A DNA stretch of 64,000 nt from a virus (Duplodnaviria; Heunggongvirae; Uroviricota; Caudoviricetes): IMG/VR virus record IMGVR_UViG_3300033489_000001, positions 62,023-126,022 of that record; one strand, 5' to 3'. A program made the translations under genes and the position numbers. Shown here piece after piece: positions 20,829 to 32,814 of the stretch. Within the stretch, counting starts at the first letter, position 1. The number at the start of each line of letters is the position of its first letter. The notes under the pieces were generated by a model. That model saw only the letters and a list, made by a program, of their open reading frames with translations. It did not search any database and was not told where the DNA came from.

Positions 20829-22391
20829 TTACCAACGTTTCGATTTCTGAGATACCTTCTTCTTAGAAAACTTTCCAGGTAGCGAAGCAATATCTCCCAC
20901 CGAAGGAGCAGCTTCAAGATACAAAGGGCTACCGTTAAAATCCACTACACTTGAAATCGTAATAGAGGCAGGGACTACTACGTTTGGAAGATCAAACGTA
21001 GTAGGAGGAGGGGAGAAAGGAACCACTACCTCCGTATCTCCATCCTCAGCTTCAAAGGAAGCCGCTATGTTGCTCTGAGCTTCATTAGAAAGAATCACAC
21101 CTGCGGTTTTGAGGTCACGATTTGCCGCCACACTATAGGTGCCACCCATGCCTCTAGTCGCCCCTCTGCTCATACTGGTCAAATACGAGGCATTACTTAC
21201 GTAAGCCGCCGAACTACCCATGCACGCACCTATATTATTAGCCACCGCACCAAGATCAACAAGACCTCTTGCTCCAATATGAGCTGAGACGGACTGCATT
21301 AATCCCGCTGCCTGAGCAAAGTTGCCTTGTTTGGCCTGTTCTTCAGCTTCAATTTGAGCCCGAACAATTTGAGCCAAGCCTACAATACGATCCAAAGCGG
21401 CGTCCGGAACTGTGTCCTGTTCCCCTTCTTTGACGAATTGAACTTTGACCTTCGCTTCTAATATCTTCCGTTCTTTACGAAGATTAGCATCCAAAATGTC
21501 ATAACCGAATTTCACATCGAATACATTAACGGCCCTGGGGAGAGCGCTCTTTTGGCTTTGAAGCTTAATGGCCAAAACCAAATTACGAGTTTCCTCTGAC
21601 AAAATGTCTGGTATCCTAATCGAAACCTGACCTAAGTCATCTTCATCAACGTCCACATCGGATACCACCTGAGTAATTTGGTGCCCAGCAAGCGGAGCTA
21701 TCTCTAGCACCAAGCCCGTAGCATAGGTGCTTAGAAGACCTCCTAACTCCTTCCCAAAAACTGAAAGAGCATCATCAGGGTTCTGCACAAAAGAGTAGTT
21801 TCCGTTACCGGACTTAGCTAAATTCAACAAGAAGTCCTGTTGGGCATCAAAGCCATACCCAAAAGCACTTACGCTGGCCCTCCCAATATTAGGTTTTACC
21901 AATGCAAGGATGTCTTTCGGTGTCTTTGCAGGCCCTTCATTCGCGGCTCCATCCGTAAAGAGAATCACCCGCAAAATCACCTCTATAGCTAAGTCCATGC
22001 TATTGACAATCCCAAACCCCTGCAAAAGAGCATCGGCTATGTTTGTAGAGGTACAGGCATGTAAGTCACCAACCTTACGTTTAAGGTCCTCTTTTGCCTC
22101 TTTGGTGCATCTTACCGGCTTTGCTACAACCTCAGCTACATTCGTAAATGTAACAAGACCGCAATAGTCATTAGCCGAAAGATGATCGATCAATTTAATC
22201 AACGACCGCTTCGCATACGCAAGCTTCTCCCCAGCCATCGAACCAGAAATATCCAAAAGAGGAATTATGCACAGCGGGGGCCTCTTATCCTCCACTGCCA
22301 CCGCCGGGGCTTGCAAATTCAGAACTAAATGCGCTTCGGTTTCTTGATTGAACTGGACTTTATTAAATGTGAGACTAGCATCAATTTTCAT
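20829..22391 (-). CDS. vWA domain protein (YfbK/inter-alpha-trypsin-inhibitor-like)
   Basis: MIDAS DISGS...T...TDG; FGYGFD; GNGNYSFV. Confidence 0.85.
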   Translation of the reverse strand: MKIDASLTFNKVQFNQETEAHLVLNLQAPAVAVEDKRPPLCIIPLLDISGSMAGEKLAYAKRSLIKLIDHLSANDYCGLVTFTNVAEVVAKPVRCTKEAKEDLKRKVGDLHACTSTNIADALLQGFGIVNSMDLAIEVILRVILFTDGAANEGPAKTPKDILALVKPNIGRASVSAFGYGFDAQQDFLLNLAKSGNGNYSFVQNPDDALSVFGKELGGLLSTYATGLVLEIAPLAGHQITQVVSDVDVDEDDLGQVSIRIPDILSEETRNLVLAIKLQSQKSALPRAVNVFDVKFGYDILDANLRKERKILEAKVKVQFVKEGEQDTVPDAALDRIVGLAQIVRAQIEAEEQAKQGNFAQAAGLMQSVSAHIGARGLVDLGAVANNIGACMGSSAAYVSNASYLTSMSRGATRGMGGTYSVAANRDLKTAGVILSNEAQSNIAASFEAEDGDTEVVVPFSPPPTTFDLPNVVVPASITISSVVDFNGSPLYLEAAPSVGDIASLPGKFSKKKVSQKSKRW

Positions 22392-23213: not shown

Positions 23214-25607
23214 ATGGAAATTGTTTGTTCCTACAAAATCAGTTCTGATCTTTATTTAGTCCGGCACCGCATAGATCAAAAAGAAACTCCTAAAAAAATT
23301 GATGTCCCTACCAACCATTTCTTGATAATCGATTGCAGCGGAAGCATGTCCTATGACCTCCCTAAAATCCGCGAACAACTCAAGAAGAAGCTGCCTAAAC
23401 TTCTCAAGGAGAAGGACACTATTACCATCATTTGGTTCAGCGGCCGGGGCCAATTTGGCACCTTATTGGAAGCTGAGCCCGTAGCTACCCTTGCAGACCT
23501 TAAAGATGTTGAACGAGCCATTGACAGATGGTTAAAACCAATAGGACTTACTGGTTTTCAAGAACCAATTGAAGAAGCTGGAAAGGTTCTTGACAGGGTG
23601 TCTAAAAAGCATCCAAAAAATGTTGGTAGTCTCCTATTCCTAAGCGATGGTTGTGATAATCAAGGCACTAGATCAAAGATATTAGATACCGTAAGTTTAG
23701 TGTCTCGTAAATTTTCCTCCTCCACATTCGTAGAGTATGGCTACTACGCCGATAGGCCCCTCCTTACCGCGATGGCTGAAAAATCCGGGGGAACGCTCAT
23801 CTTCGCTGAAGACTTTGACCGCTACGCTCCTACTTTTGAATCAGCCATTCAAAAGAAGCTATCTGGGGCTCCCCGCATTGAAGTCAAGCTTACGGAAACT
23901 CCTGTAGAAGGATTCGCCTTTGCTCGCTCTGACGGGGATCTTTTAACCTTTGCTGTTACTGAAAACACAATTCAAGTTCCGGCGGACTTACCCTGTATTT
24001 CCTACCTCACAAAATCCCCCAAAGATGAAGTCACAGATTTAGGTATGGGATCTCTTTTACAAACCCTGTCCCTAGGCATAATAGCAAAAGAGCACTCCGA
24101 TCCTAAATCCAAAGTAAGTGCAGATGAACAACCCATAAGGGACGCCTATGCAGCCTTGTCCCTCTATGCCATCCGGATGAAATCTAACATTGTCTTCCCT
24201 CTACTAAAGGCTTTGGGAGATATAAAGTTCATTGATCAATTCTCTACCTGTTTCGGAAAACAAGCCTATTCCGCTTTCCAAGAAGTGACTAAAGAGGCAG
24301 CCTTTGACGAGAAAAAACAGTGGGAAAAAGGATGGGATCCAAACAAAGTCCCGGCGGAAGATGCCTTTACCATTTTGGAATTAATGCAGCTCTTAGCCTC
24401 AGACGAAAACAATCGGGTACTACTTGATCACTCGTCCTTCAAGTACAACCGAATAGGGCGAGGACGCATAGATGCAAGCGACCAAATCACCGCCGACGAG
24501 CAAAAAGAGATACAAGAGTTAACAGTCAAGTTAGCTACTGAAAAGAAAGCCTCTAAAGCCAAAGAAATTTCTGATCGAATCGCTGAGATCACAAACAAGA
24601 AGACTCTAAAGTTTGAAGCTGATCCCGCTCCAGACGGGTATCCTATATCATCGCTCACTTTCAACGAGGACCGGCCCAATGTTTCATTTCTTGTTCGTAA
24701 GGCTGGGACGGTTGATCTTTCCGCTTGGATACCGGAAACACTCCAAGGAAAACTTCCGGCAAAATTCCCAACCTTTGTTTATCGAAACTATGCCGTAATC
24801 AAAGACGGCCTAGTCAACATTGATGTATTGCCAGTCAGGATTAAGGAAAACACTTACAAAGAAATCCTGTCAAAAACCTCCACAGAGGTCATAAACAGTG
24901 CAGTTGCTGATTCTCAGGGCTTCGTTGATACCGTTTTAAATCTTCGCTTACTTCCCGTGATCAATCGCAAAATGATCAAGGACGTGAGTGCCAAAACCTT
25001 CTTCCAAATCAAGTATACCCTGATTCAAGCGCAAGCCGAACAAAAGGTCTTTAACAGTTATTCCAAAGATCTTTTGCCTGATAAGAAATCGAAAAGCTTC
25101 TCCACTCAATACGGGGATGAAGCTACCGAATGGCTTAAAGAGCTAGGATTTACAGATTACTCCGGCTTTTCTCCTAAGAGCATTCAAGCTGAAGCAGTTG
25201 ACTTCTACATGGGGAAAGAGCTGAAAGTAAACCTAAAAGGACTTTCATCCCTGCCTAGTCTTAATGAACTTCGTAAACAAATTGCCAAGGGTAAGACCAA
25301 TACTGCCGGTAGCCTTATGGTTCCAACCTTCAACTTGGTTGAAGGATTCCTAACTAATGACATTTACAAGAATGCCGCTGATAAGGACGCCGTTCTAAAA
25401 GCCTGGTTAGAGGGTCAAACCAAGGCGGCTAAGACAAAGACCCGCGCTCTGATCTATCAGATTGCTCAAACAGTCTTTGTTTTAACAGTGGGTCAAATCT
25501 GGTTTAAAGAGTTTGCCACGCTCGATGACAACTCCTTGGATATAGATGTGGCCGGAACTACTATTCCTTGCAAAGCCGAGCTACGTGAGATCAAAATAAA
25601 GATCTAA
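23214..25607 (+). CDS. Large vWA domain protein
   Basis: MIDAS DCSGS...T...SDG in the N-terminal ~200 aa; C-terminal ~550 aa unrecognised. Confidence 0.8.
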   Translation: MEIVCSYKISSDLYLVRHRIDQKETPKKIDVPTNHFLIIDCSGSMSYDLPKIREQLKKKLPKLLKEKDTITIIWFSGRGQFGTLLEAEPVATLADLKDVERAIDRWLKPIGLTGFQEPIEEAGKVLDRVSKKHPKNVGSLLFLSDGCDNQGTRSKILDTVSLVSRKFSSSTFVEYGYYADRPLLTAMAEKSGGTLIFAEDFDRYAPTFESAIQKKLSGAPRIEVKLTETPVEGFAFARSDGDLLTFAVTENTIQVPADLPCISYLTKSPKDEVTDLGMGSLLQTLSLGIIAKEHSDPKSKVSADEQPIRDAYAALSLYAIRMKSNIVFPLLKALGDIKFIDQFSTCFGKQAYSAFQEVTKEAAFDEKKQWEKGWDPNKVPAEDAFTILELMQLLASDENNRVLLDHSSFKYNRIGRGRIDASDQITADEQKEIQELTVKLATEKKASKAKEISDRIAEITNKKTLKFEADPAPDGYPISSLTFNEDRPNVSFLVRKAGTVDLSAWIPETLQGKLPAKFPTFVYRNYAVIKDGLVNIDVLPVRIKENTYKEILSKTSTEVINSAVADSQGFVDTVLNLRLLPVINRKMIKDVSAKTFFQIKYTLIQAQAEQKVFNSYSKDLLPDKKSKSFSTQYGDEATEWLKELGFTDYSGFSPKSIQAEAVDFYMGKELKVNLKGLSSLPSLNELRKQIAKGKTNTAGSLMVPTFNLVEGFLTNDIYKNAADKDAVLKAWLEGQTKAAKTKTRALIYQIAQTVFVLTVGQIWFKEFATLDDNSLDIDVAGTTIPCKAELREIKIKI

Positions 25608-25622
25608 CCGGAACTAGAAATT

Positions 25623-25662
25623 AAAAAACCGGGCGAAGTATTGTCAGTCCAACTTCGTCCGG
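25623..25662 (-). terminator. Rho-independent terminator closing the tRNA-mimic RNA array
   Basis: 11-bp stem (25629-25639/25652-25662) followed on the minus strand by TTTTTT. Confidence 0.75.
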
Positions 25663-25699
25663 TCCCCTTACAGCAGCGGCTTTCTGCAATGGTTTCCCT

Positions 25700-25749
25700 C
25701 GGTGCTCTTGGCGGGAATCGAACCCACTAAGCTCCATCTGCTCAAGAAC
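25700..25749 (-). ncRNA. 50-nt mini-tRNA (acceptor stem + T arm only), copy 1
   Basis: GTTCTTG-15 nt-GTGGG TTCGATT CCCGC-CAAGAGC-ACCG. Confidence 0.65.
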
Positions 25750-25752
25750 ATA

Positions 25753-25906
25753 TTCTGCAACGTATCCGAGTACTAAACCTGTTTTAGCGTTTTGCTTGTA
25801 CCAAAAACAAGTGCCTTAACCACTAGGCTACTTCTCCCTTACGGGGGAAAGTTGGATTCGAACCAACGATTGCATGTAAGATTTAGCTGGTGGATACAAT
25901 GCAGAA
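25753..25906 (-). ncRNA. Circularly permuted tRNA-like RNA (YrlA/Y-RNA-like) A, with a Gln(UUG) anticodon arm
   Basis: Order: closing stem, T arm GTTGG TTCGAAT CCAAC, acceptor capped by C-GTAA-G, D arm GCC TAGTGGTTAA GGC, anticodon arm CTTGT TTTTGGT ACAAG, closing stem. Confidence 0.8.
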
Positions 25907-25912
25907 ATTTTT

Positions 25913-26036
25913 GAGGGCGTTCGAGGCGAAAAAGCAGGTTTTTTGCGACGGGATTCGGACCCGTTACAATCTGTTTATAGGACAGATGCTCTACCTATTG
26001 AGCTACGCTTGTATGCTTTCTCTGTTGAGCGTCCTC
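25913..26036 (-). ncRNA. Pseudo-tRNA-Ile(UAU) with a broken, extended acceptor stem
   Basis: D arm GCTC/GAGC, anticodon arm TCTGT CCTATAA ACAGA, T arm ACGGG TCCGAAT CCCGT; only 3 acceptor bp, then outer helices GAGAAAGCA/TGCTTTTTC and GAGGACG/CGCCCTC. Confidence 0.65.
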
Positions 26037-26085
26037 GGTGCCGGATCGTGGAGTCGAACCACGCTAAGCAACCTATTTGTCCGAC
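26036..26085 (-). ncRNA. 50-nt mini-tRNA (acceptor stem + T arm only), copy 2
   Basis: GTCGGAC-15 nt-CGTGG TTCGACT CCACG-ATCCGGC-ACCG. Confidence 0.65.
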
Positions 26086-26136
26086 AGTCCCACTCATTAA
26101 GAAGGTGGGCTTACTTTGATTGATGAACCTCAGGCT

Positions 26137-26164
26137 AATATACCAATCCAGAATATATTGTCAA
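26137..26164 (-). promoter_or_regulatory. Sigma70-type promoter inside the RNA array
   Basis: TTGACA-N16-TATATT with a TG extended -10. Confidence 0.6.
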
Positions 26165-26175
26165 CCAAAAATCAT

Positions 26176-26289
26176 TGCACCCGAGTAGATAAACCTGGTT
26201 TTGCCTTACCATTAGGCTATTTTTCCAGTTTATGGAGGAAAAAGTTGGAATTGAACCAACATGCATGTAAGGTTTATCTGGTGGGTGCA
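26176..26289 (-). ncRNA. Circularly permuted tRNA-like RNA (YrlA/Y-RNA-like) B
   Basis: TGCACCC/GGGTGCA and ATAAACCT/AGGTTTAT closing stems; T arm GTTGG TTCAATT CCAAC; capped acceptor TTTTTCC/GGAAAAA; D arm GCC TAATGGTAA GGC; no anticodon arm. Confidence 0.8.
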
Positions 26290-26290
26290 G

Positions 26291-26424
26291 TGGCGGGCTA
26301 TTCGGGAGTCGAACCCTATCTTGTAAGGACTAGCGGGGTGGTCCCTTTGAGAGGACCGAGAACTAATCCTGGTTAGTTGCCTTTTTATAATAAAGGTGAC
26401 GGAACCGACCGTCTGTTATAGCCC
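26291..26424 (-). ncRNA. 134-nt tRNA-like RNA, UAU anticodon, ~61-nt variable region, encoded CCA
   Basis: Perfect 7-bp acceptor GGGCTAT/ATAGCCC plus GCCA; D-like GACGG/CCGTC; CCTTT ATTATAA AAAGG arm; two extra hairpins; T loop TTCGACT. Confidence 0.7.
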
Positions 26425-26483
26425 CTTGTTTTCAAACAACGAAATCTACTTATAGCACCGATCCGAACAACAAACAACTTCTA

Positions 26484-26890: not shown

Positions 26891-27499
26891 TCAGGTTCGT
26901 ATGAACCCGGCCGGATGAATTTCGAAACCAATCTTCTTCCCGTTCTTTAAAAACTCCTGAGCGGCCTTAGCCAAAAAAGCCGAGACCAAGCCAATAAAAG
27001 GGAGGAACTCTCCTCCAGCACAAGTAGCGGTTTCTCCGGCCACTTCGGAATCGATCGCAAAAGATTCATCCCAGACCACTCTTCCAAAGGAGCCACCAGC
27101 CGCCAGAGCCCCGTGAAGGCAAGGAGTTTTTGTCCTACGAGCAAAGCCTTGGACAAGCCTGCGAGCTTCCGCGTTATCTAGGCAATCGATAATCAAGTCA
27201 GACCCAGACAAAAGCTGGTTAGCATTATCCGAAGTCAACTTGTGTGGGACTCCAATAAGTTTTACCCCAAATAAGAACTGCATTGTCTGCTGTAGAGATA
27301 GAGTTTTATTCTTACCCACTCCTGGTTTTCCATGAAATTGTGAGAGAACATTTTTAGTCTCCACACGATCATAATCAATGATCCTTAGATTAACCTCGTT
27401 CCTCAGAAATTGAACGACGTGAGATCCTAAAGCTCCCACACCAACAATTGTAACTAGCTTTTCCACTATCAATCCCGAACTGGTATTAAAATTTGTCAA
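26891..27499 (-). CDS. E1/ThiF-family ubiquitin-like activating enzyme
   Basis: IVGVGALGS, DYDRVETKN, DCLDN..AR, candidate catalytic Cys in ATCAGG; no Zn-binding CxxC pairs. Confidence 0.88.
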   Translation of the reverse strand: MTNFNTSSGLIVEKLVTIVGVGALGSHVVQFLRNEVNLRIIDYDRVETKNVLSQFHGKPGVGKNKTLSLQQTMQFLFGVKLIGVPHKLTSDNANQLLSGSDLIIDCLDNAEARRLVQGFARRTKTPCLHGALAAGGSFGRVVWDESFAIDSEVAGETATCAGGEFLPFIGLVSAFLAKAAQEFLKNGKKIGFEIHPAGFIRT

Positions 27500-28512
27500 G
27501 TTAGATCATTCGCCCCGAAGATACAGTCCTTATATGTTTTTCCTCGTTTAATTAAACTTATAGCCGATGGGGATACTCCAAAAATACGAGCTATCCCATG
27601 ATTAGTAATGCCTCTTCTTATCAGGTTCTTAATTTTATAAATTTGATGTTCATTTAATTTCCTAACTCCAGTGGGTTTAGGAGATCTCACAAAAGCAAAC
27701 TTATATCTAAAGCAACCCAACATGAATGGATCTAGTATTTCTTTCAGACGAACAGCATCGGCTAACTTAGATAAAAGCAAAATTCTGTATCCTTTGCCAG
27801 TCTTACACATAGTAGGGGTTAAACCTAAATCTTTTCTAAAACGACAAAGAAGAAAATTTAGGTCTGCTTCAGAAAAAGCGCAGGTACTAAATGACAGTTG
27901 CCCTAATCTTGAATAAGAACCATCACCAAAAAACCATAGTGCCATGGTCAATGGAGTAAGTTGAAGGTCACTGGGAATAACTTTTTTGTCTCTAAGATAC
28001 CACCTCTTATTCTGTTCCCTAAGCTCCTTGTAAGTTGATGTACAAAGCCTCAATCCAGCAGAGGTCCTAAACGATTTTCCTCTGATTGATCCAAACCTAG
28101 AAGGATAAAAGCGCACAGAACTAACAACACCAATATCCCAAAATTTTGATTGAAGGTTATAGATCCATTCAGAATGAGTTATCTCTTGGTGTATCTGTAA
28201 TTGTCCTTTAGGCGTAATATGCCCATCTCCTAACAATAAACCGTCCACTGTTTCTATGAATTTTTTGTGGGTATTGAAGTTTAGATTTATTTCTTTATTT
28301 ATGTTTGACTTAAAAACTCCTTCTACTTGAAGTCTTTGAGTCACTGTATGTCTATTCACACCCAACCGACTAGCAATTACAGATGGGCTATTGCCAGCTA
28401 AGTAACTAACTACTATAGCCTCATTATCAAGCTTTAGCGAAGGGCGACTCACAAAAGATTCCAAAAGGCGTTTTTGGCCGAATTTGCAAAAGATTAAAGG
28501 GACGAGCTTCAT
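27496..28512 (-). CDS. Free-standing LAGLIDADG homing endonuclease with terminal HTH domains
   Basis: DGLLLGDGHI and ALWFFGDGS motifs; HTH-like segments at both ends; start uncertain (overlaps the Ubl 3' end). Confidence 0.85.
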   Translation of the reverse strand: MKLVPLIFCKFGQKRLLESFVSRPSLKLDNEAIVVSYLAGNSPSVIASRLGVNRHTVTQRLQVEGVFKSNINKEINLNFNTHKKFIETVDGLLLGDGHITPKGQLQIHQEITHSEWIYNLQSKFWDIGVVSSVRFYPSRFGSIRGKSFRTSAGLRLCTSTYKELREQNKRWYLRDKKVIPSDLQLTPLTMALWFFGDGSYSRLGQLSFSTCAFSEADLNFLLCRFRKDLGLTPTMCKTGKGYRILLLSKLADAVRLKEILDPFMLGCFRYKFAFVRSPKPTGVRKLNEHQIYKIKNLIRRGITNHGIARIFGVSPSAISLIKRGKTYKDCIFGANDLT

Positions 28513-28711
28513 TAGCTGTGAAACGATCCACTACAAAATCCTGTAAATCCACATCAAGATTTGCTGCAATTCCAGGGATACCCCCTGTACGAATTGCTTC
28601 GGTTACCCACTGCTTAACATCTGCGTCCGTGGAATCAAATAGTACAGGATCCGGAAGATCTCCATTGGACCCAGCAAACGTAATATTGATCTTGGCTTCA
28701 TTGGTTTCCAT
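28427..28711 (-). CDS. Ubiquitin-like (beta-grasp) protein, inferred
   Basis: 94 aa, between JAB and E1; RPKTPFG84 followed by a 10-aa tail. Confidence 0.6.
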   Translation of the reverse strand: METNEAKINITFAGSNGDLPDPVLFDSTDADVKQWVTEAIRTGGIPGIAANLDVDLQDFVVDRFTANEARPFNLLQIRPKTPFGIFCESPFAKA

Positions 28712-28766
28712 ACAGCACCTCCATTTTACATTTAATGCCTTGTACTACTACACCGATTAGGTTTCG

Positions 28767-29189
28767 TCAAGAGAAAGTTATTACTGGTTTTTCTGGGTCA
28801 ATAAAAGAAGCAGGATCGTAATTTGATTCTTCACGGAGACGTTTCAGCCAGGATGTTTCAAATATGCAATGGGTGATACCATACCCTAACTTATCAGGGC
28901 CAACCCAAAACAACCTTATATAAGCATCATAACTCACAATCCACCAATTCCACCGCTTGCCCAATGCAGCCTCAATTGCGGAAAAAGTTGTTAGATCTTC
29001 ATGCGAAGGTCCTGGCACCCCACTACCCGGATGACTGTGAGCGAAACCTAAGACTTGTGCCCGATTAGTCCAAATTACATCCCAAAGGTCATAACTATCA
29101 GGAAGCGACCCTGCACTTCTTTTGTTAGGCAAATGCCAAAAAAGGGGCTCCTCATTAAGACCAACCAAAACTCCAGCTTCAGTACTCAT
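28767..29189 (-). CDS. JAB/MPN+ metalloprotease
   Basis: N-terminal Glu plus HSHPGSGVPGPSHED (HxH...SxxD). Confidence 0.85.
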   Translation of the reverse strand: MSTEAGVLVGLNEEPLFWHLPNKRSAGSLPDSYDLWDVIWTNRAQVLGFAHSHPGSGVPGPSHEDLTTFSAIEAALGKRWNWWIVSYDAYIRLFWVGPDKLGYGITHCIFETSWLKRLREESNYDPASFIDPEKPVITFS

Positions 29190-30749: not shown

Positions 30750-32666
30750 TCAAGCTGCCCAGGCCGGTTTTGAAAGAAGGGCTGTATCCAAAATTATATC
30801 CACTAAGGACTTTCTAGGAACAGCAGCAGCTCTGGCCGCCTTACCAACGGGTGTGGCGGAAATTAAAGTACGGATAGTCCGAGGAATTGCATAAGCATCT
30901 GCAAAGATCTTCTCATCGATCATGAAGCACGGGACACCTAACTCAGTCGCCGTACCGGTGACTGCCGAGTAAGGAGATTGCCGCACTTTCAAGAAACCAA
31001 AAGCAATCGGCTCTAATTTAGAATCCCGTACAGCAGCCGCAAAAGGTCCAGCTTCCTCATCGCCTACGAAGATGAAAAGGACATCCTCATCAGCCTTAGG
31101 TTTGAAGTTTTGAAGCGCCCGTACCCCAGCACCGTAATCAGTGCCACCTCCAGACGTAATGCCTCGAAAAGCATTTTCAACTCCAGCAGCAGAATTGTGC
31201 TTAATCTCAACCACACGACCAGAAGTATTGAATACCGAAACATGGATCTGATCTTTTGGAAATCCCTGTAAGAACTTGGCCAAATAGACTTTGGCTTGCT
31301 CAATGGCATCATGCATCGAACCTGAGATATCCACCATGAAGTAGATGCGGAGACCTTTGACAACTTCTTCTACGGCCTTTTTAACCGCATTGTCCGCCGC
31401 TTCTACAAGCTTTTCTTGTGTCGCCTTAGAACGAACACGGGTTGCGATATTAGCCGCCCTGGTGTCTTCAGCGGTCTTGATAGCCCTCTCCCACCGCTCA
31501 CGGATTTCTTGAACATCAAGAAGCCCAAGTTCCTCAAGGGTAGGAGTTGAAATGATCAAGTCCTTATCAGAAAGCGCCTTCGCTTCGATAGCTGCCGCCA
31601 TAATCGCTCTTGTCAGTCCCATGTCTTTAGGCAAGAGGCCCACAATGCGCTTAAAGCTTGGCTTGGTCTTGATGATAGTCTTACAGATTTTTGCTTCGTC
31701 AAATCCTTCCCAAGATTCCGCCGCCGCAACAGCCTGACCAATAGTAAGAGTCCTTCTGCCGTCTTTCGCTTGCGTTTGCTTCCAACGAAGAACCTCAAAG
31801 AATTTTGTGGAAGTAGGCTTGTATCCAACCGTACGAGCTAGGTCCATCACTGTCCGTCGAAACCCCGCTTTGACTAAACCTTCTAGCATCTTTGGGTTTT
31901 CTTCCCGATAACGAAGCCACTTTTCAACAACCTTAGGCCAACGACCTAGAAACGGATGTTGAGCTGATTTTCCAAAGCCCAGCTCTTGGTTGATTTGCAC
32001 AACAGCCGGTAGAAGCAGGACATCTCGAACACGGAATAGAAGCTTTGGGTTGAAATCTCTGCCTACTTCTACCTTAGCCTCCTTATCCGCCTTACCCTTT
32101 TTCTTGGTTTTTGTACCTTGAGGGCGAGCCACTTTACTGGTCAATAGCAGCATCGCTTCCCCAACATCACGAAAGTCTTCATCGTAGAAAGCCAGTTTTC
32201 CACCGTCAAGAACAGGATCACCTTTACGGCATTGTACAAGCATGAAAGCCGCTAGGATGACTTTCAAATCCCGGTGCTCTTGTGCATAAGCATAAGAAGC
32301 CCACTTAGCTGAGAACTCATTATCAAGCCTCCAAACCTCAGCAACTTGCCGGTAAATCCACGACACAACCTCTGGGTACAATCCCGCCGGTTGATAACGG
32401 CCAATGACCCGGTTTCCGTCTTTTACACGACCGTCGTCCTTGAGCTTACCAAGCTTGACCTTAGTATCCTTGCGCCCAATTCTACGTAATTCGTAGACGA
32501 CTTTATCGCCTTCTTCTACTACGTGAGTTACTGGCAACCATTTAGTGCCCACAACCGAAGTAGTATCAGGAATCGTAATTCCAGCTCGGTTATGGTAACT
32601 ATGATCGACATAGCCAAGAACCGTCTGGAGAATTCGTTCTGCTGGTCCTAGGTTTTCATTTGGCAT
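30750..32666 (-). CDS. Divergent Ro60/TROVE-like protein with C-terminal vWA domain
   Basis: Helical N-terminal region with DLARTVGYKP (cf. Ro60 DLLRLxHxKP); vWA DISGS, GGGTDY, FVGDEE; co-located with YrlA-like RNAs; probable start MPNEN at 32666. Confidence 0.6.
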   Translation of the reverse strand: MPNENLGPAERILQTVLGYVDHSYHNRAGITIPDTTSVVGTKWLPVTHVVEEGDKVVYELRRIGRKDTKVKLGKLKDDGRVKDGNRVIGRYQPAGLYPEVVSWIYRQVAEVWRLDNEFSAKWASYAYAQEHRDLKVILAAFMLVQCRKGDPVLDGGKLAFYDEDFRDVGEAMLLLTSKVARPQGTKTKKKGKADKEAKVEVGRDFNPKLLFRVRDVLLLPAVVQINQELGFGKSAQHPFLGRWPKVVEKWLRYREENPKMLEGLVKAGFRRTVMDLARTVGYKPTSTKFFEVLRWKQTQAKDGRRTLTIGQAVAAAESWEGFDEAKICKTIIKTKPSFKRIVGLLPKDMGLTRAIMAAAIEAKALSDKDLIISTPTLEELGLLDVQEIRERWERAIKTAEDTRAANIATRVRSKATQEKLVEAADNAVKKAVEEVVKGLRIYFMVDISGSMHDAIEQAKVYLAKFLQGFPKDQIHVSVFNTSGRVVEIKHNSAAGVENAFRGITSGGGTDYGAGVRALQNFKPKADEDVLFIFVGDEEAGPFAAAVRDSKLEPIAFGFLKVRQSPYSAVTGTATELGVPCFMIDEKIFADAYAIPRTIRTLISATPVGKAARAAAVPRKSLVDIILDTALLSKPAWAA

Positions 32667-32814
32667 GGTATTTAATCCGATCTGGCTCGCCCTTGGCACA
32701 AACTTATAAGGCTGGCAAGCTAGCCTTGAAAAAACCCCCATTATTACACCGAATAACGGTCTTGTAAAGTTACTTCCTAGCAGATTACTTGAAAAAAAAA
32801 CAGCTTTTGTGACT

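What the first reader, a model, noticed from the sequence alone, without database searches (positions are those of the whole stretch)
26291..26424. Oversized CCA-ending tRNA-like RNA with a UAU anticodon and a ~61-nt two-hairpin variable region
Seen: perfect acceptor stem, G discriminator and encoded CCA; a D-like hairpin; a correctly placed 5-bp/7-nt arm reading AT-TAT-AA; two extra hairpins; a TTCGACT T loop. RNA B starts immediately after the CCA. Established: bacteria normally read AUA with lysidine-modified CAU, so UAU tRNAs are rare. Inference: a chargeable tRNA carrying an extra protein-binding domain, or a large decoy.
Basis: partly seen in the sequence, partly recalled or inferred. 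Interest (0 to 1): 0.72.

Follow-up and report, generated by a model that had tools for sequence, protein, structure and literature searches.

The report
Phage tRNA-shaped RNA with Ro handle
This 134-base gene of a 411-kb phage encodes a real, conserved RNA shaped like a complete tRNA with a long extra arm, which is probably the docking handle for a Ro60-like protein encoded nearby; it is best read as a new, "un-rotated" relative of bacterial Y RNAs and not as a rare isoleucine tRNA.

Summary
The RNA is real and lies on the minus strand (26424 to 26291). It has a 7-bp acceptor stem, G73-CCA, a compact D hairpin, a 5-bp/7-nt anticodon-like arm (AUUAUAA) and a canonical T arm. The 61-nt "variable region" is not two hairpins. 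It is one 45-nt two-part helix followed by a conserved UUACAAG.

A covariance model found 116 distinct relatives in 55 huge-phage loci, nearly all beside and co-oriented with a divergent Ro60-like (TROVE-like + vWA) gene. All six helices covary (94.5% of cells paired, 59% when shuffled).

The extra arm matches the closing stem of the circularly permuted YrlA-like RNAs that follow it. After rotation those RNAs align to this one (z 5.7 and 3.8, about 0 unrotated).

The UAU triplet occurs only in this member. Loops are hypervariable: 66 different loops, U33 in 54%. CCA is encoded in only 26%. G73 does not fit isoleucine identity. A dedicated AUA decoder is therefore unlikely.

However, the loops look like real anticodon loops and correlate with the discriminator base, so charging or tRNA-specific mimicry stays open.

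Verdict: a new variant of Y-RNA-type tRNA mimics. Earlier notes of this scan report similar tRNA-shaped Y-like RNAs on other phage DNA. I found no published description.

The parts
26291..26424 (-). The RNA itself ('A-type'): 134-nt tRNA-shaped RNA with a long extra arm
   Evidence: Fold. R1/R2 covariance-model family. Covariation.
26418..26424 (-). Acceptor stem, 5' strand GGGCUAU (RNA nt 1-7); pairs with 26295-26301
   Evidence: The acceptor helix is 99.5% paired in 116 relatives, and all 7 pairs show double changes.
26398..26413 (-). Compact D-like hairpin GACGG-UCGGUU-CCGUC (5 bp, 6-nt loop with GG), preceded by a 4-nt linker AACA
   Evidence: The helix is 98.3% paired in the family. The GG in the loop is conserved.
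26380..26396 (-). Anticodon-like arm CCUUU-AUUAUAA-AAAGG; UAU at 26387-26389
   Evidence: The stem is 95.9% paired. The loop is hypervariable in the family, and UAU is unique to this member.
26326..26370 (-). Extra ('handle') arm: helix 1 (nt 55-63/91-99), internal loop UCUC / CACCC, helix 2 (nt 68-73/80-85), loop CUCAAA
   Evidence: 84.4% and 96.9% paired. CUCG and C-A-N-N are conserved. Same register as the 5' strand of the permuted neighbours.
26320..26328 (-). Conserved junction motif CCUUACAAG (family consensus C-Y-Y-A-C-A-M-G-C) between the handle and the T arm
   Evidence: ACA is invariant in 106 of 106 A-type and 67 of 67 B-type RNAs where the motif was located.
26302..26318 (-). T arm UAGGG-UUCGACU-CCCGA (one A.G mismatch)
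   Evidence: The T stem is 97.4% paired, and GGUUCRAnUCC is conserved.
26291..26301 (-). Acceptor 3' strand AUAGCCC, discriminator G (26294), CCA (26291-26293)
   Evidence: In the family the tail is N-C-(C/U)-(A/G): CCA 30, CUA 27, CCG 21, CUG 14 of 116.
26170..26290 (-). Neighbouring permuted YrlA-like RNA ('B-type'). Its termini form the handle. Its acceptor stem is closed by a loop that contains U-CCA.
   Evidence: Fold (z = -5.7). Aligns to A only after rotation (z 3.8 against -0.1). 67 of 115 A-type RNAs are followed by such an element.
25753..25906 (-). Second permuted RNA, with an anticodon arm (UUUUGGU)
   Evidence: Fold. Rotated alignment to A z = 5.7, against 0.0 as encoded.
30750..32741 (-). 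Presumed protein partner: 663-aa Ro60-like protein (helical-repeat N-terminal part plus C-terminal vWA)
   Evidence: Pfam finds vWA only. For the full-length AF2 model the top Foldseek hits are all Ro60/TROVE. For the N-terminal domain alone, three Ro60 chains rank 1-3 of 48,161 (Z 9.3, 9.1, 7.3; next 5.7).
26137..26164 (-). Sigma-70-like promoter TTGACA-16-TATATT (TG-extended) downstream of A and B. A and B themselves have no such promoter and probably ride on the operon transcript.

Best explanation
The 134-nt RNA belongs to a large, previously undescribed family of phage RNAs. Each is a full tRNA-shaped body (open 7-bp acceptor end, compact D hairpin, anticodon-like arm, canonical T arm) with a conserved 45-nt bipartite helix in the variable-arm position. 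Shown: the fold, its conservation and covariation, its linkage to a divergent Ro60-like (TROVE-like + vWA) gene, and the fact that it is the circular permutation of the YrlA-like RNAs encoded right after it. Inferred: the extra arm (helix - CUC/CA-N-N internal loop - helix, followed by YYACAMGC) is the handle that the Ro60-like protein binds, as Ro60 binds the stem of Y RNAs. The tRNA body would present a free acceptor end and an anticodon-like loop to a tRNA-handling factor: a synthetase, the CCA-adding enzyme, RNase P, EF-Tu, the ribosome, or a host tRNA nuclease. The RNA would thereby tether the Ro60-like protein to that factor or bait it. The loop sequence, UAU here, is one state of a fast-changing, tRNA-imitating loop and does not mark an AUA-decoding tRNA. 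A and B are probably co-transcribed with the upstream operon (Ro60-like gene ... JAB ... E1/ThiF) and separated by tRNA-type end processing.
For: Fold: (z -4.05). Family: the model R1, built from this RNA alone, finds more than 110 full-length matches (E down to 1e-23) in loci that were fetched only through the protein. 114 of 116 lie on the gene's strand, often as 2-6 copies per locus. Covariation: 94.5% of cells are paired against 59.4% shuffled and at most 56% when slid. 36 of 37 pairs show double changes. Linkage in whole genomes: in five phage records of 370-536 kb, 20 of 24 strong R2 matches lie within about 6 kb of the gene. Cultured Corallococcus chromosomes with a 38%-identical protein carry a permuted relative of the RNA directly upstream of the gene. 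Protein: the AF2 models match Ro60/TROVE best. Shared handle: A-type and B-type RNAs have the same register, CCA(C/A)(C/U) - 8 or 9 nt - C-YY-ACA-M-GC. Rotated E and B align to A at z 5.7 and 3.8, against about 0 as encoded. The anticodon arm is dispensable and the handle is not: members in L089 and L019 lack the D and anticodon arms but keep acceptor, handle and T arm. Against a decoder role: UAU is unique, there are 66 distinct loops among 90, U33 is present in 49 of 90, and CCA is encoded in 30 of 116. The nearest relatives have other loops. From established knowledge, G73 differs from the A73 of bacterial tRNA-Ile. Precedent: YrlA RNAs lie near Ro60, mimic tRNA and are modified by tRNA enzymes. 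M. smegmatis YrlA is cut by RNase P and receives CCA (PMC4201824). Phage phiLo Ro60 binds phage-encoded Y-like RNAs and host PNPase (PMC12135203).
Against: No binding, expression or end-mapping data exist, so the partnership rests on co-location and analogy. The protein has no sequence-level TROVE match. Its N-terminal domain alone gives no significant Foldseek hit, and the VIA-align Z values of 7-9 come with rmsd near 8 A. The published Ro-binding motifs (GNCGAAN0-1G, CGAA) are absent from the handle. Rfam YrlA does not score this RNA. The loops are not random: R37 in 80 of 90, A38 in 70 of 90, and recurrent natural-looking loops such as CUCAUAA, CUGUUAA and CUUCCAC. The discriminator fits the implied amino acid in 47 of 90 cases, against 28.4 +/- 4.0 when shuffled. 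This fits charged, identity-bearing RNAs as well as mimics. The phage uses AUA often (13.4 per 1000 codons) and has no canonical tRNA-Ile(UAU).
Confidence: 0.68

Rival explanations
1. It is a working, chargeable tRNA, read at face value as tRNA-Ile(UAU). It decodes on the ribosome and merely carries a protein-binding tag in its variable arm, a natural counterpart of engineered aptamer-tagged tRNAs.
For: It has a complete cloverleaf with a 7/5 acceptor/T branch, G-CCA, U33, A37, A38 and a canonical T loop. Relaxed ARAGORN calls it tRNA-Ile(tat). The phage's 36 canonical tRNAs include no UAU tRNA, and AUA makes up 23% of Ile codons. Across the family the loop triplet and the discriminator co-vary in the sense of bacterial identity rules (Gly-like UCC with U73 in 9 of 10, Asn-like with G73 in 8 of 9). 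Permuted relatives often keep N-CCA inside the acceptor-closing loop, which suggests that a free CCA end matters. Engineered tRNAs with hairpin aptamers on the variable arm remain active in translation (PMC7590224).
Against: UAU is found in no relative, and orthologue-level relatives have AUC, AAU, GGA, AUU and GUU instead. G73 does not fit Ile identity (A73, established knowledge). U33 is missing in 46% of family members, and 74% do not encode CCA. The D arm is non-canonical: a 4-nt linker, a 5-bp stem and a 5-6-nt loop without A14/R15/A21. Some members lack the anticodon arm entirely. Default tRNA detectors reject it. The triplet-discriminator association was not corrected for shared descent.
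Confidence: 0.15
2. It is a decoy or sensor for host tRNA-targeting defence enzymes such as anticodon nucleases. Each paralogue would imitate one host tRNA's anticodon loop and discriminator, often with changes at positions 33/34 where such nucleases cut. The Ro60-like protein, and in this lineage the Ubl-E1-JAB genes, would act on the trapped enzyme or on the damaged RNA. This is a specific version of the best explanation, not an opposite of it.
For: Loops change fast, even among close relatives, yet stay anticodon-like. Many are natural loops with a substitution at 33 or 34, for example CAGUUAA, CGGUUAA and UGGUUAA beside CUGUUAA, and CUAUCAC, which differs at position 34 from the natural tRNA-Asp loop CUGUCAC as I recall it. 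Arrays of 2-6 copies carry different loops. Ro60 systems are tied to RNA damage and repair in bacteria (PMC4201824, PMC7790460). Jumbo phages carry ROT/TROVE proteins among their RNA-repair genes (PMC7824862).
Against: This is purely inferential. No nuclease partner was identified, the host is only guessed (Myxococcota), and the cut-site argument rests on my recollection of known anticodon nucleases. Cellular Corallococcus loci have the RNA-protein pair too, which argues for a housekeeping or stress role that predates any phage counter-defence use.
Confidence: 0.2
3. It is a precursor whose 45-nt arm is an intervening sequence. The arm would be removed by cleavage and ligation to give an ordinary tRNA.
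For: Relaxed ARAGORN models the insert as an intron. Ro60 operons in bacteria often include the RtcB ligase (PMC4201824).
Against: The arm is the best-conserved non-tRNA part of the family, with covarying helices and an invariant flanking ACA. The same module forms the termini of the permuted neighbours, where it cannot be an intron. There is no bulge-helix-bulge geometry. Removing the arm would still leave about 18 unpaired nt. No RtcB was seen among the flanking ORFs that were tested.
Confidence: 0.03
4. It is a decayed tRNA pseudogene or a chance tRNA-like fold.
For: Default tRNA finders miss it.
Against: There are 116 distinct relatives with compensatory changes in every helix, and fold z = -4.05.
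Confidence: 0.01

Closest known systems
YrlA and other bacterial/phage Y RNAs bound by Ro60/Rsr (Rfam RF02553; Chen et al. 2014, PMC4201824; Wang et al. 2018, 10.1101/312249; phage phiLo Yrl1/2, PMC12135203)
   Same: Encoded near and co-oriented with a Ro60-type gene, often several per locus. A tRNA-like T arm, D arm and acceptor stem are combined with a long helix that carries an internal loop. A pyrimidine-rich Y-U-A-Y-type motif follows that helix (here YYACA). Its immediate neighbours in this window are of the permuted YrlA topology.
   Different: The topology is that of a normal tRNA: the acceptor end is open (G-CCA) and the long helix is closed by a loop. In YrlA the acceptor is closed and the termini form the helix. 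This RNA has a full anticodon-like arm, and the helix sits in the variable-arm position. The GNCGAAN0-1G / CGAA motif is absent. The Rfam YrlA model does not score it. The protein partner has no sequence-level TROVE match.
[quoted passage not shown]
   Same: A Y RNA whose tRNA-like part ends in a free CCA on a 7-bp acceptor stem. The permuted neighbour B here even encodes U-CCA in its acceptor loop.
   Different: That form is a two-piece RNA made by processing. The RNA studied here is encoded in one piece with the handle closed.
Class II tRNAs, tRNA-Sec and allo-tRNAs (Mukai et al. 2017, PMC5389517; review PMC7609411)
   Same: tRNAs with long variable arms. tRNA-Sec has a long D stem with a tiny loop. 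Allo-tRNAs have very diverse anticodons, UAU being the commonest, occur in soil metagenomes as polycistrons, and many do not work in translation.
   Different: Those have 8/4, 9/3 or 8/5 acceptor/T branches and variable arms without a conserved internal loop (under about 25 nt as I recall). This RNA is 7/5 with a 45-nt bipartite arm, a conserved flanking motif and a Ro60-like gene neighbour.
Engineered aptamer-tagged tRNAs (Mukai 2020, PMC7590224)
   Same: A tRNA body with a protein-binding hairpin grafted on the variable arm. Strong binding sequesters the tRNA, and moderate binding recruits a fused enzyme.
   Different: Those are synthetic. This one is natural, and its protein partner and any charging are untested.
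Class I RNAs of dictyostelid amoebae (PMC7919456)
   Same: A closing stem is directly followed by a conserved motif. As I recall, that motif is CCUUACAGCAA. The paper's stated invariant positions (T3, C6, C9, A10, A11) fit this. Here the motif is CCUUACA(N)GC.
   Different: One extra base in the motif. Class I RNAs are 42-65 nt, have no tRNA body, and come from a eukaryote. Homology was not tested. The lead came from earlier notes of this scan.
Bacterial tRNA-Ile(UAU) (established knowledge: a few bacteria read AUA with UAU instead of lysidine-CAU)
   Same: UAU in the anticodon position, with U33, A37 and A38.
   Different: G73 instead of A73, a non-canonical D arm, a 45-nt arm, and no conservation of UAU in any relative.

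Membership tests
Canonical elongator tRNA (specifically tRNA-Ile UAU) | Cloverleaf with 7-bp acceptor stem, 5-bp T stem, TPsiC-type loop and a 3' N-CCA end | tested here: met
   The T stem has one A.G mismatch.
Canonical elongator tRNA (specifically tRNA-Ile UAU) | Recognised by tRNA models at their normal thresholds | tested here: not met
   ARAGORN at default settings finds 0 genes in the window. Rfam RF00005 gives no match over 26291-26424 even at E<=10. Only ARAGORN -i -ps80 calls it.
Canonical elongator tRNA (specifically tRNA-Ile UAU) | Canonical D arm: 2-nt linker, 3-4-bp stem, 7-11-nt loop with A14, R15, G18G19, A21 | tested here: not met
   It has a 4-nt linker, a 5-bp stem and a 6-nt loop UCGGUU. 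Only the GG is kept.
Canonical elongator tRNA (specifically tRNA-Ile UAU) | Anticodon conserved among orthologues; U33 and R37 universal | tested here: not met
   UAU occurs in 1 of 90 loops, U33 in 49 of 90, R37 in 80 of 90. The nearest relatives have other triplets.
Canonical elongator tRNA (specifically tRNA-Ile UAU) | Isoleucine identity set (A73 with the anticodon) | tested here: not met
   The discriminator is G. The A73 rule comes from established knowledge of bacterial IleRS identity.
Canonical elongator tRNA (specifically tRNA-Ile UAU) | Aminoacylation and use on the ribosome | not testable with these tools
   No RNA data are available. No RNA holder is listed for this stretch.
YrlA / Y RNA (Rfam RF02553) | Encoded close to, and on the same strand as, a Ro60 (TROVE + vWA) gene | tested here: inconclusive
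   Same strand, 4.3 kb downstream, and the linkage recurs in 55 loci and in 5 whole phage genomes. But the protein is Ro60-like by predicted fold only, with no Pfam TROVE match.
YrlA / Y RNA (Rfam RF02553) | tRNA-like module with T arm, D arm and acceptor-like stem | tested here: met
YrlA / Y RNA (Rfam RF02553) | 5' and 3' ends pair to form the Ro-binding stem; acceptor-like stem closed; no anticodon loop | tested here: not met
   The topology is the reverse: open acceptor, closed long helix, anticodon-like arm present. The neighbours at 26170-26290 and 25753-25906 do meet this feature.
YrlA / Y RNA (Rfam RF02553) | GNCGAAN0-1G (CGAA) motif in the stem | tested here: not met
   The conserved handle positions are CUCG on one strand and C-A-N-N on the other.
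YrlA / Y RNA (Rfam RF02553) | Scores at or above the Rfam gathering threshold (69 bits) | tested here: not met
   The RF02553 search of the whole phage gives no hit on this RNA. The best hits (28 bits) are junctions of ordinary tandem tRNAs.
YrlA / Y RNA (Rfam RF02553) | Bound by Ro60/Rsr | not testable with these tools
   Needs EMSA or co-immunoprecipitation.
Allo-tRNA / tRNA-Sec-like | 12- or 13-bp acceptor branch in 8/4, 9/3 or 8/5 form | tested here: not met
   7/5 in this RNA and across the family.
Intron-containing tRNA | Insert bounded by a bulge-helix-bulge motif or a self-splicing intron core, and not conserved as a structured module of the mature RNA | tested here: not met
   No bulge-helix-bulge in the fold. 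No intron family in Rfam. The arm covaries and is shared with the permuted RNAs.

The most novel reading that the evidence does not exclude
Huge phages, probably of Myxococcota, encode a whole class of 'handle-tagged tRNAs'. These would be tRNA-shaped RNAs that each keep the anticodon-loop look and discriminator of a particular tRNA species, end in or acquire CCA, and may be aminoacylated. Through a conserved 45-nt arm they would carry a Ro60-like protein (here with a Ubl-E1-JAB module) onto the tRNA-handling machinery. Possible roles are as baits for host anticodon nucleases, or as adaptors that bring Ro60-type RNA surveillance to synthetases, EF-Tu or ribosomes. The open form would also be the long-sought tRNA-topology ancestor from which the permuted Y RNAs arose by tandem duplication.
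Probability: 0.25. Interest if true: 0.88.

Novelty: new variant of a known kind. Interest (0 to 1): 0.7.

Why it matters
Y RNAs of bacteria were known only as 'inside-out' tRNA mimics without a free CCA end or an anticodon loop, and their effector partners are still unknown. This RNA and its more than 100 relatives show the same handle mounted on a complete, open tRNA shape. Its anticodon-like loops diversify rapidly yet track the discriminator base.

This gives three testable openings:
- A natural experiment on what the tRNA part of a Y RNA is for. The candidates are charging, CCA addition, nuclease baiting or ribosome contact.
- Side-by-side open and permuted forms that support the proposed origin of Y RNAs from tandem tRNAs.
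- A natural counterpart of engineered aptamer-tagged tRNAs.

It also shows that tRNA finders miss a sizeable class of tRNA-shaped genes in huge phages.

Tried and rejected
- blastn of the 900-nt RNA array against 50,697 phage records gave no match.
- Public sequencing runs: no RNA holder is listed, only DNA metagenomes. Expression and RNA ends therefore could not be examined and read laying was not used.
- Sequence-level searches of the 663-aa protein (Pfam at E<=10, NCBIfam, PDB sequences, PHROGs) found only the vWA domain.
- Foldseek with the N-terminal domain alone gave nothing at E<=0.001.
- The pdb_via second look at the full model was filled by vWA domains.
- The Rfam YrlA model gave no hit on A, B or E.
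- Rfam at gathering thresholds on four cellular loci (L163, L164, L169, L176) gave nothing.
- MAFFT alignments of the first homologues mis-registered the stems. I replaced them with a single-sequence covariance model and its fitted alignment.
- The two-hairpin reading of the insert was rejected on pair counts.
- The intron reading was rejected; see the rival explanations.
- I considered that the RNA fills the phage's missing AUA decoder. The phage has tRNA-Ile(GAU), two CAU tRNAs and no UAU tRNA. This could not be excluded from this genome alone, but it is disfavoured by the family data.
- I did not send a complex-prediction job, because the tool handles proteins only.
Full report
WHAT IS THERE. 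The window is part of a 411,618-bp virus record with direct terminal repeats. The stretch 25620-26470 holds no long ORF and, read on the minus strand, is an array of tRNA-like modules. The finding's RNA runs from 26424 to 26291. Its parts, in order:
- acceptor strand GGGCUAU
- linker AACA
- D-like hairpin GACGG-UCGGUU-CCGUC
- A
- anticodon-like arm CCUUU-AUUAUAA-AAAGG
- nine unpaired bases
- a long arm
- UUACAAGAUA
- T arm UAGGG-UUCGACU-CCCGA
- acceptor strand AUAGCCC
- G, then CCA

RNAfold returns exactly this cloverleaf as both the minimum-free-energy and the centroid structure (-46.5 kcal/mol; shuffles -31.7 +/- 3.7; z -4.05). The long arm is one bipartite helix: 9 bp, then internal loop UCUC/CACCC, then 6 bp, then loop CUCAAA. 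It is not two hairpins.

ARAGORN finds no tRNA in the window at default settings. Rfam's tRNA model does not report this RNA even at E<=10. ARAGORN calls it tRNA-Ile(tat) with a 36-nt 'intron' only at -i -ps80.

IT IS A FAMILY. The 663-aa ORF 4.3 kb upstream on the same strand (30750-32741) has a C-terminal vWA domain. I used it, and then alignments of its relatives, to fetch loci:
- 47 loci from viral contigs, on contigs of up to 619 kb
- 80 loci from metagenomes
- 70 loci from genome assemblies

A covariance model built from the window RNA alone (R1) found more than 110 full-length matches in these loci. That is 116 distinct sequences in 55 loci, and 114 of them lie on the strand of the protein gene. 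Many loci hold several copies, up to 6 at this cut-off in L012.

On the model-fitted alignment:
- 94.5% of cells are standard pairs, against 59.4% after column shuffling and at most 56% when partners are slid.
- 36 of 37 pairs show changes on both sides.
- Percent paired per helix: acceptor 99.5, D 98.3, anticodon stem 95.9, arm helix 1 84.4, arm helix 2 96.9, T 97.4.

The alignment is fitted to the model, so these counts lean towards it, but the slid controls share that bias. The local hairpin that a two-hairpin reading needs is paired in 32% of cells, the same as shuffled.

A refined model (R2) was run over five whole phage records of 370-536 kb. It placed 20 of 24 strong matches within about 6 kb of the protein gene. 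The weak matches were ordinary tRNAs. In the window's own genome this RNA is the only copy.

RELATION TO ITS NEIGHBOURS. The next RNA (26290-26170) and a third one (25906-25753) fold as long terminal helices. Each encloses UUACAUGCA, a T arm, an acceptor stem closed by a loop, and a canonical D arm. This is the circularly permuted tRNA mimic known as YrlA (PMC4201824).

Their terminal helix is the same module as the extra arm of the finding's RNA. Anchored on the invariant ACA, both types share the register CCA(C/A)(C/U) - 8 or 9 nt - C-YY-ACA-M-GC.

When the two permuted RNAs are cut in the acceptor loop and rejoined at their termini, they align to the finding's RNA with z = 5.7 and 3.8. As encoded they give z = 0.0 and -0.1. 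The finding's RNA is therefore the un-permuted isomer of its neighbours.

The tandem order is conserved. 67 of 115 family members are followed 15-34 nt downstream by the YYACAVG start of a permuted element, where about 7% would be expected by chance.

Among permuted elements whose acceptor stem is closed by a long loop, most carry N-CCA directly after the 3' strand. In this window the sequence is UUUUUCC-U-CCA-UAAACU-GGAAAAA. This recalls M. smegmatis YrlA, which RNase P opens and which then receives CCA (PMC4201824).

THE PROTEIN. No sequence method sees a TROVE domain.
- An AF2 model of the whole protein (pLDDT 77.7) has as its 13 best Foldseek matches only Ro60/TROVE structures. These include the Thermus phage phiLo Ro60. 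E-values are 1e-8 to 7e-6 over 507-588 columns, and TM-scores are only 0.20-0.42.
- The N-terminal 424 residues modelled alone (pLDDT 84.3) give no significant Foldseek match.
- An exhaustive VIA-align search of 48,161 chains ranks three Ro60 proteins first: Z 9.3, 9.1 and 7.3, with 250-275 residues aligned and rmsd 8-10 A. The next match has Z 5.7.

I read this as a divergent Ro60-like protein (helical-repeat ring followed by vWA), with moderate confidence.

Relatives at 50-61% identity sit on contigs binned with Myxococcota MAGs. Relatives at about 38% identity sit in cultured Corallococcus chromosomes. There a permuted RNA with the same CUACACG / T arm / CACUCGG landmarks lies directly upstream of the gene. 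So the RNA-protein pairing is older than this phage lineage. The JAB, LAGLIDADG and ThiF/E1 genes between the protein gene and the array recur in the related phage locus L001 but not in Corallococcus.

IS IT A tRNA-Ile(UAU)? Evidence against:
- Among 90 family members with 7-nt loops there are 66 different loops and 30 central triplets. UAU occurs only here.
- The closest relatives (bodies 67-72% identical) read AUC, AAU, GGA, AUU, UCC and GUU.
- U33 is present in only 49 of 90 loops.
- CCA is encoded in only 30 of 116. The tail is N-C-(C/U)-(A/G).
- Several members lack the D and anticodon arms but keep acceptor, handle and T arm.
- The discriminator here is G, whereas bacterial isoleucine identity uses A73 (established knowledge).

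Evidence for:
- The phage has 36 ordinary tRNAs and a tmRNA elsewhere, with Ile(GAU) and two CAU tRNAs but no UAU tRNA.
- It uses AUA at 13.4 per 1000 codons.

The loops are far from random. R37 is present in 80 of 90 and A38 in 70 of 90. Natural-looking loops recur, such as CUCAUAA, CUGUUAA and CUUCCAC/A. The discriminator fits the amino acid implied by the triplet in 47 of 90 cases, against 28.4 +/- 4.0 in 10,000 shuffles. UCC goes with U73 in 9 of 10, and the Asn-type triplets (GUU/AUU) go with G73 in 8 of 9. That test is not corrected for shared descent.

It leaves two readings open. Either the family members imitate particular tRNA species, or at least some of them are charged. Engineered tRNAs with protein-binding hairpins on the variable arm do work in translation (PMC7590224), so the arm by itself does not forbid this.

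MOST LIKELY MECHANISM.
- Shown: a conserved tRNA-shaped RNA with a conserved extra arm. It is linked to a Ro60-like gene and is the topological isomer of adjacent YrlA-like RNAs.
- Inferred, by analogy with Ro60/Y RNA particles (PMC4201824; PMC12135203): the arm is the handle for the Ro60-like protein. The tRNA body engages a tRNA-handling factor, so the RNA acts as a tether or a bait.
- The loop, UAU in this copy, is a rapidly changing specificity element and not a decoding anticodon.
- A and B have no sigma-70-type promoter of their own. The only strong one (11 of 12 matches, TG-extended) lies after B at 26164-26137. A and B therefore probably ride on the operon transcript and are released by tRNA-type processing.

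KNOWN OR NEW. Published Y RNAs are described as lacking a free CCA end and an anticodon loop (10.1101/312249). The phiLo phage Y-like RNAs are stem-bulge-stem RNAs with a CGAA motif (PMC12135203). Jumbo-phage surveys mention only that some phages carry a ROT/TROVE protein with a tRNA-like partner (PMC7824862). Allo-tRNAs share the diverse anticodons and long arms, but they have 8/4 or 9/3 branches and another context (PMC5389517). Seven literature searches found no description of the open, anticodon-arm-bearing form. Earlier notes of this scan describe comparable tRNA-shaped Y-like RNAs beside Ro60-like genes in other phages. They are AI notes, which I treated as leads only.

LIMITS. There is no expression, end-mapping, binding or charging evidence. 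Loci were fetched through the protein, so the linkage statistics outside the five whole genomes are biased towards linkage. The Ro60 assignment rests on predicted structures with modest scores.

Noticed in passing
window 25945-26008 (-), extended to about 25913-26036: A second tRNA-like module with UAU in the anticodon position (loop CCUAUAA, C33). It scores 48 bits with Rfam tRNA but has only 3 acceptor pairs, which continue into an interrupted outer helix (AGAAAGCA / UGCUUUUU).
   Followed up: partly
window about 26036-26072 (-) and 25700-25749 (-): Two 'top-half' mini-tRNAs: acceptor stem, a 15-nt linker with GG, and a T arm. Both end in GCACCGAGG, that is A-CC-G instead of A-CCA. The same ACCG tail is common in the A-type family (21 of 116 have CCG).
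   Followed up: no
window 26137-26164 (-): A near-consensus sigma-70 promoter (TTGACA, 16-nt spacer, TG-TATATT) sits inside the RNA array, after RNA B. It suggests the array is transcribed as two units.
   Followed up: partly
genome C1:217595-250649 (outside the window): The phage carries 36 canonical tRNAs and a tmRNA (tag ANDNAALPLAIAA). tRNA-Asp and any tRNA-Ile(UAU) are missing. One CAU tRNA (217818-217890) has the odd loop CCCAUAA (C33) and a U1/U72 mismatch.
   Followed up: partly
genome C1:248041-248414 and other tRNA clusters: The Rfam YrlA model gives its best (sub-threshold) hits on junctions of ordinary tandem tRNAs (T arm of one plus D arm of the next). This fits the published idea that permuted Y RNAs arose from tRNA dimers.
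   Followed up: no
L164:9740-9930 (Corallococcus coralloides chromosome) and the same place in L163, L165, L166, L159: Cultured myxobacteria carry a 38%-identical Ro60-like vWA gene with a permuted tRNA-like RNA directly upstream (compact D hairpin, anticodon-like arm UUCGUAA, CUACACG motif). Neither is recognised by Pfam TROVE or Rfam YrlA.
   Followed up: partly
window 26891-29189 (-) and L001:13137-18258: JAB, a LAGLIDADG homing endonuclease and a ThiF/E1-like gene lie between the Ro60-like gene and the RNA array in both phages. An E1 plus ubiquitin-like carrier next to tRNA-like RNAs could also be a sulfur relay for tRNA thiolation (TtuB/TtuC or Urm1/Uba4 type, from my own knowledge) and not a protein-tagging system. 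Not tested.
   Followed up: no
window 26320-26328 (-), 26262-26272 (-), 25870-25880 (-): The junction motif CCUUACA(N)GC after the handle resembles the 11-nt motif that follows the closing stem of dictyostelid Class I RNAs (PMC7919456 gives T3, C6, C9, A10, A11 as near-invariant). Homology was not tested.
   Followed up: partly
window 20829-22391 (-) and 23214-25607 (+): Two further vWA-domain proteins flank the RNA array. The 797-aa one matches phrog_2426 end to end (E 2e-173), function unknown.
   Followed up: no
G005 (record of L004) C1:91336-92136 and G004 (record of L023) C1:210093-210238: A few strong A-type copies lie 10-30 kb away from the Ro60-like gene, so the arrays are not strictly confined to that operon.
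   Followed up: no
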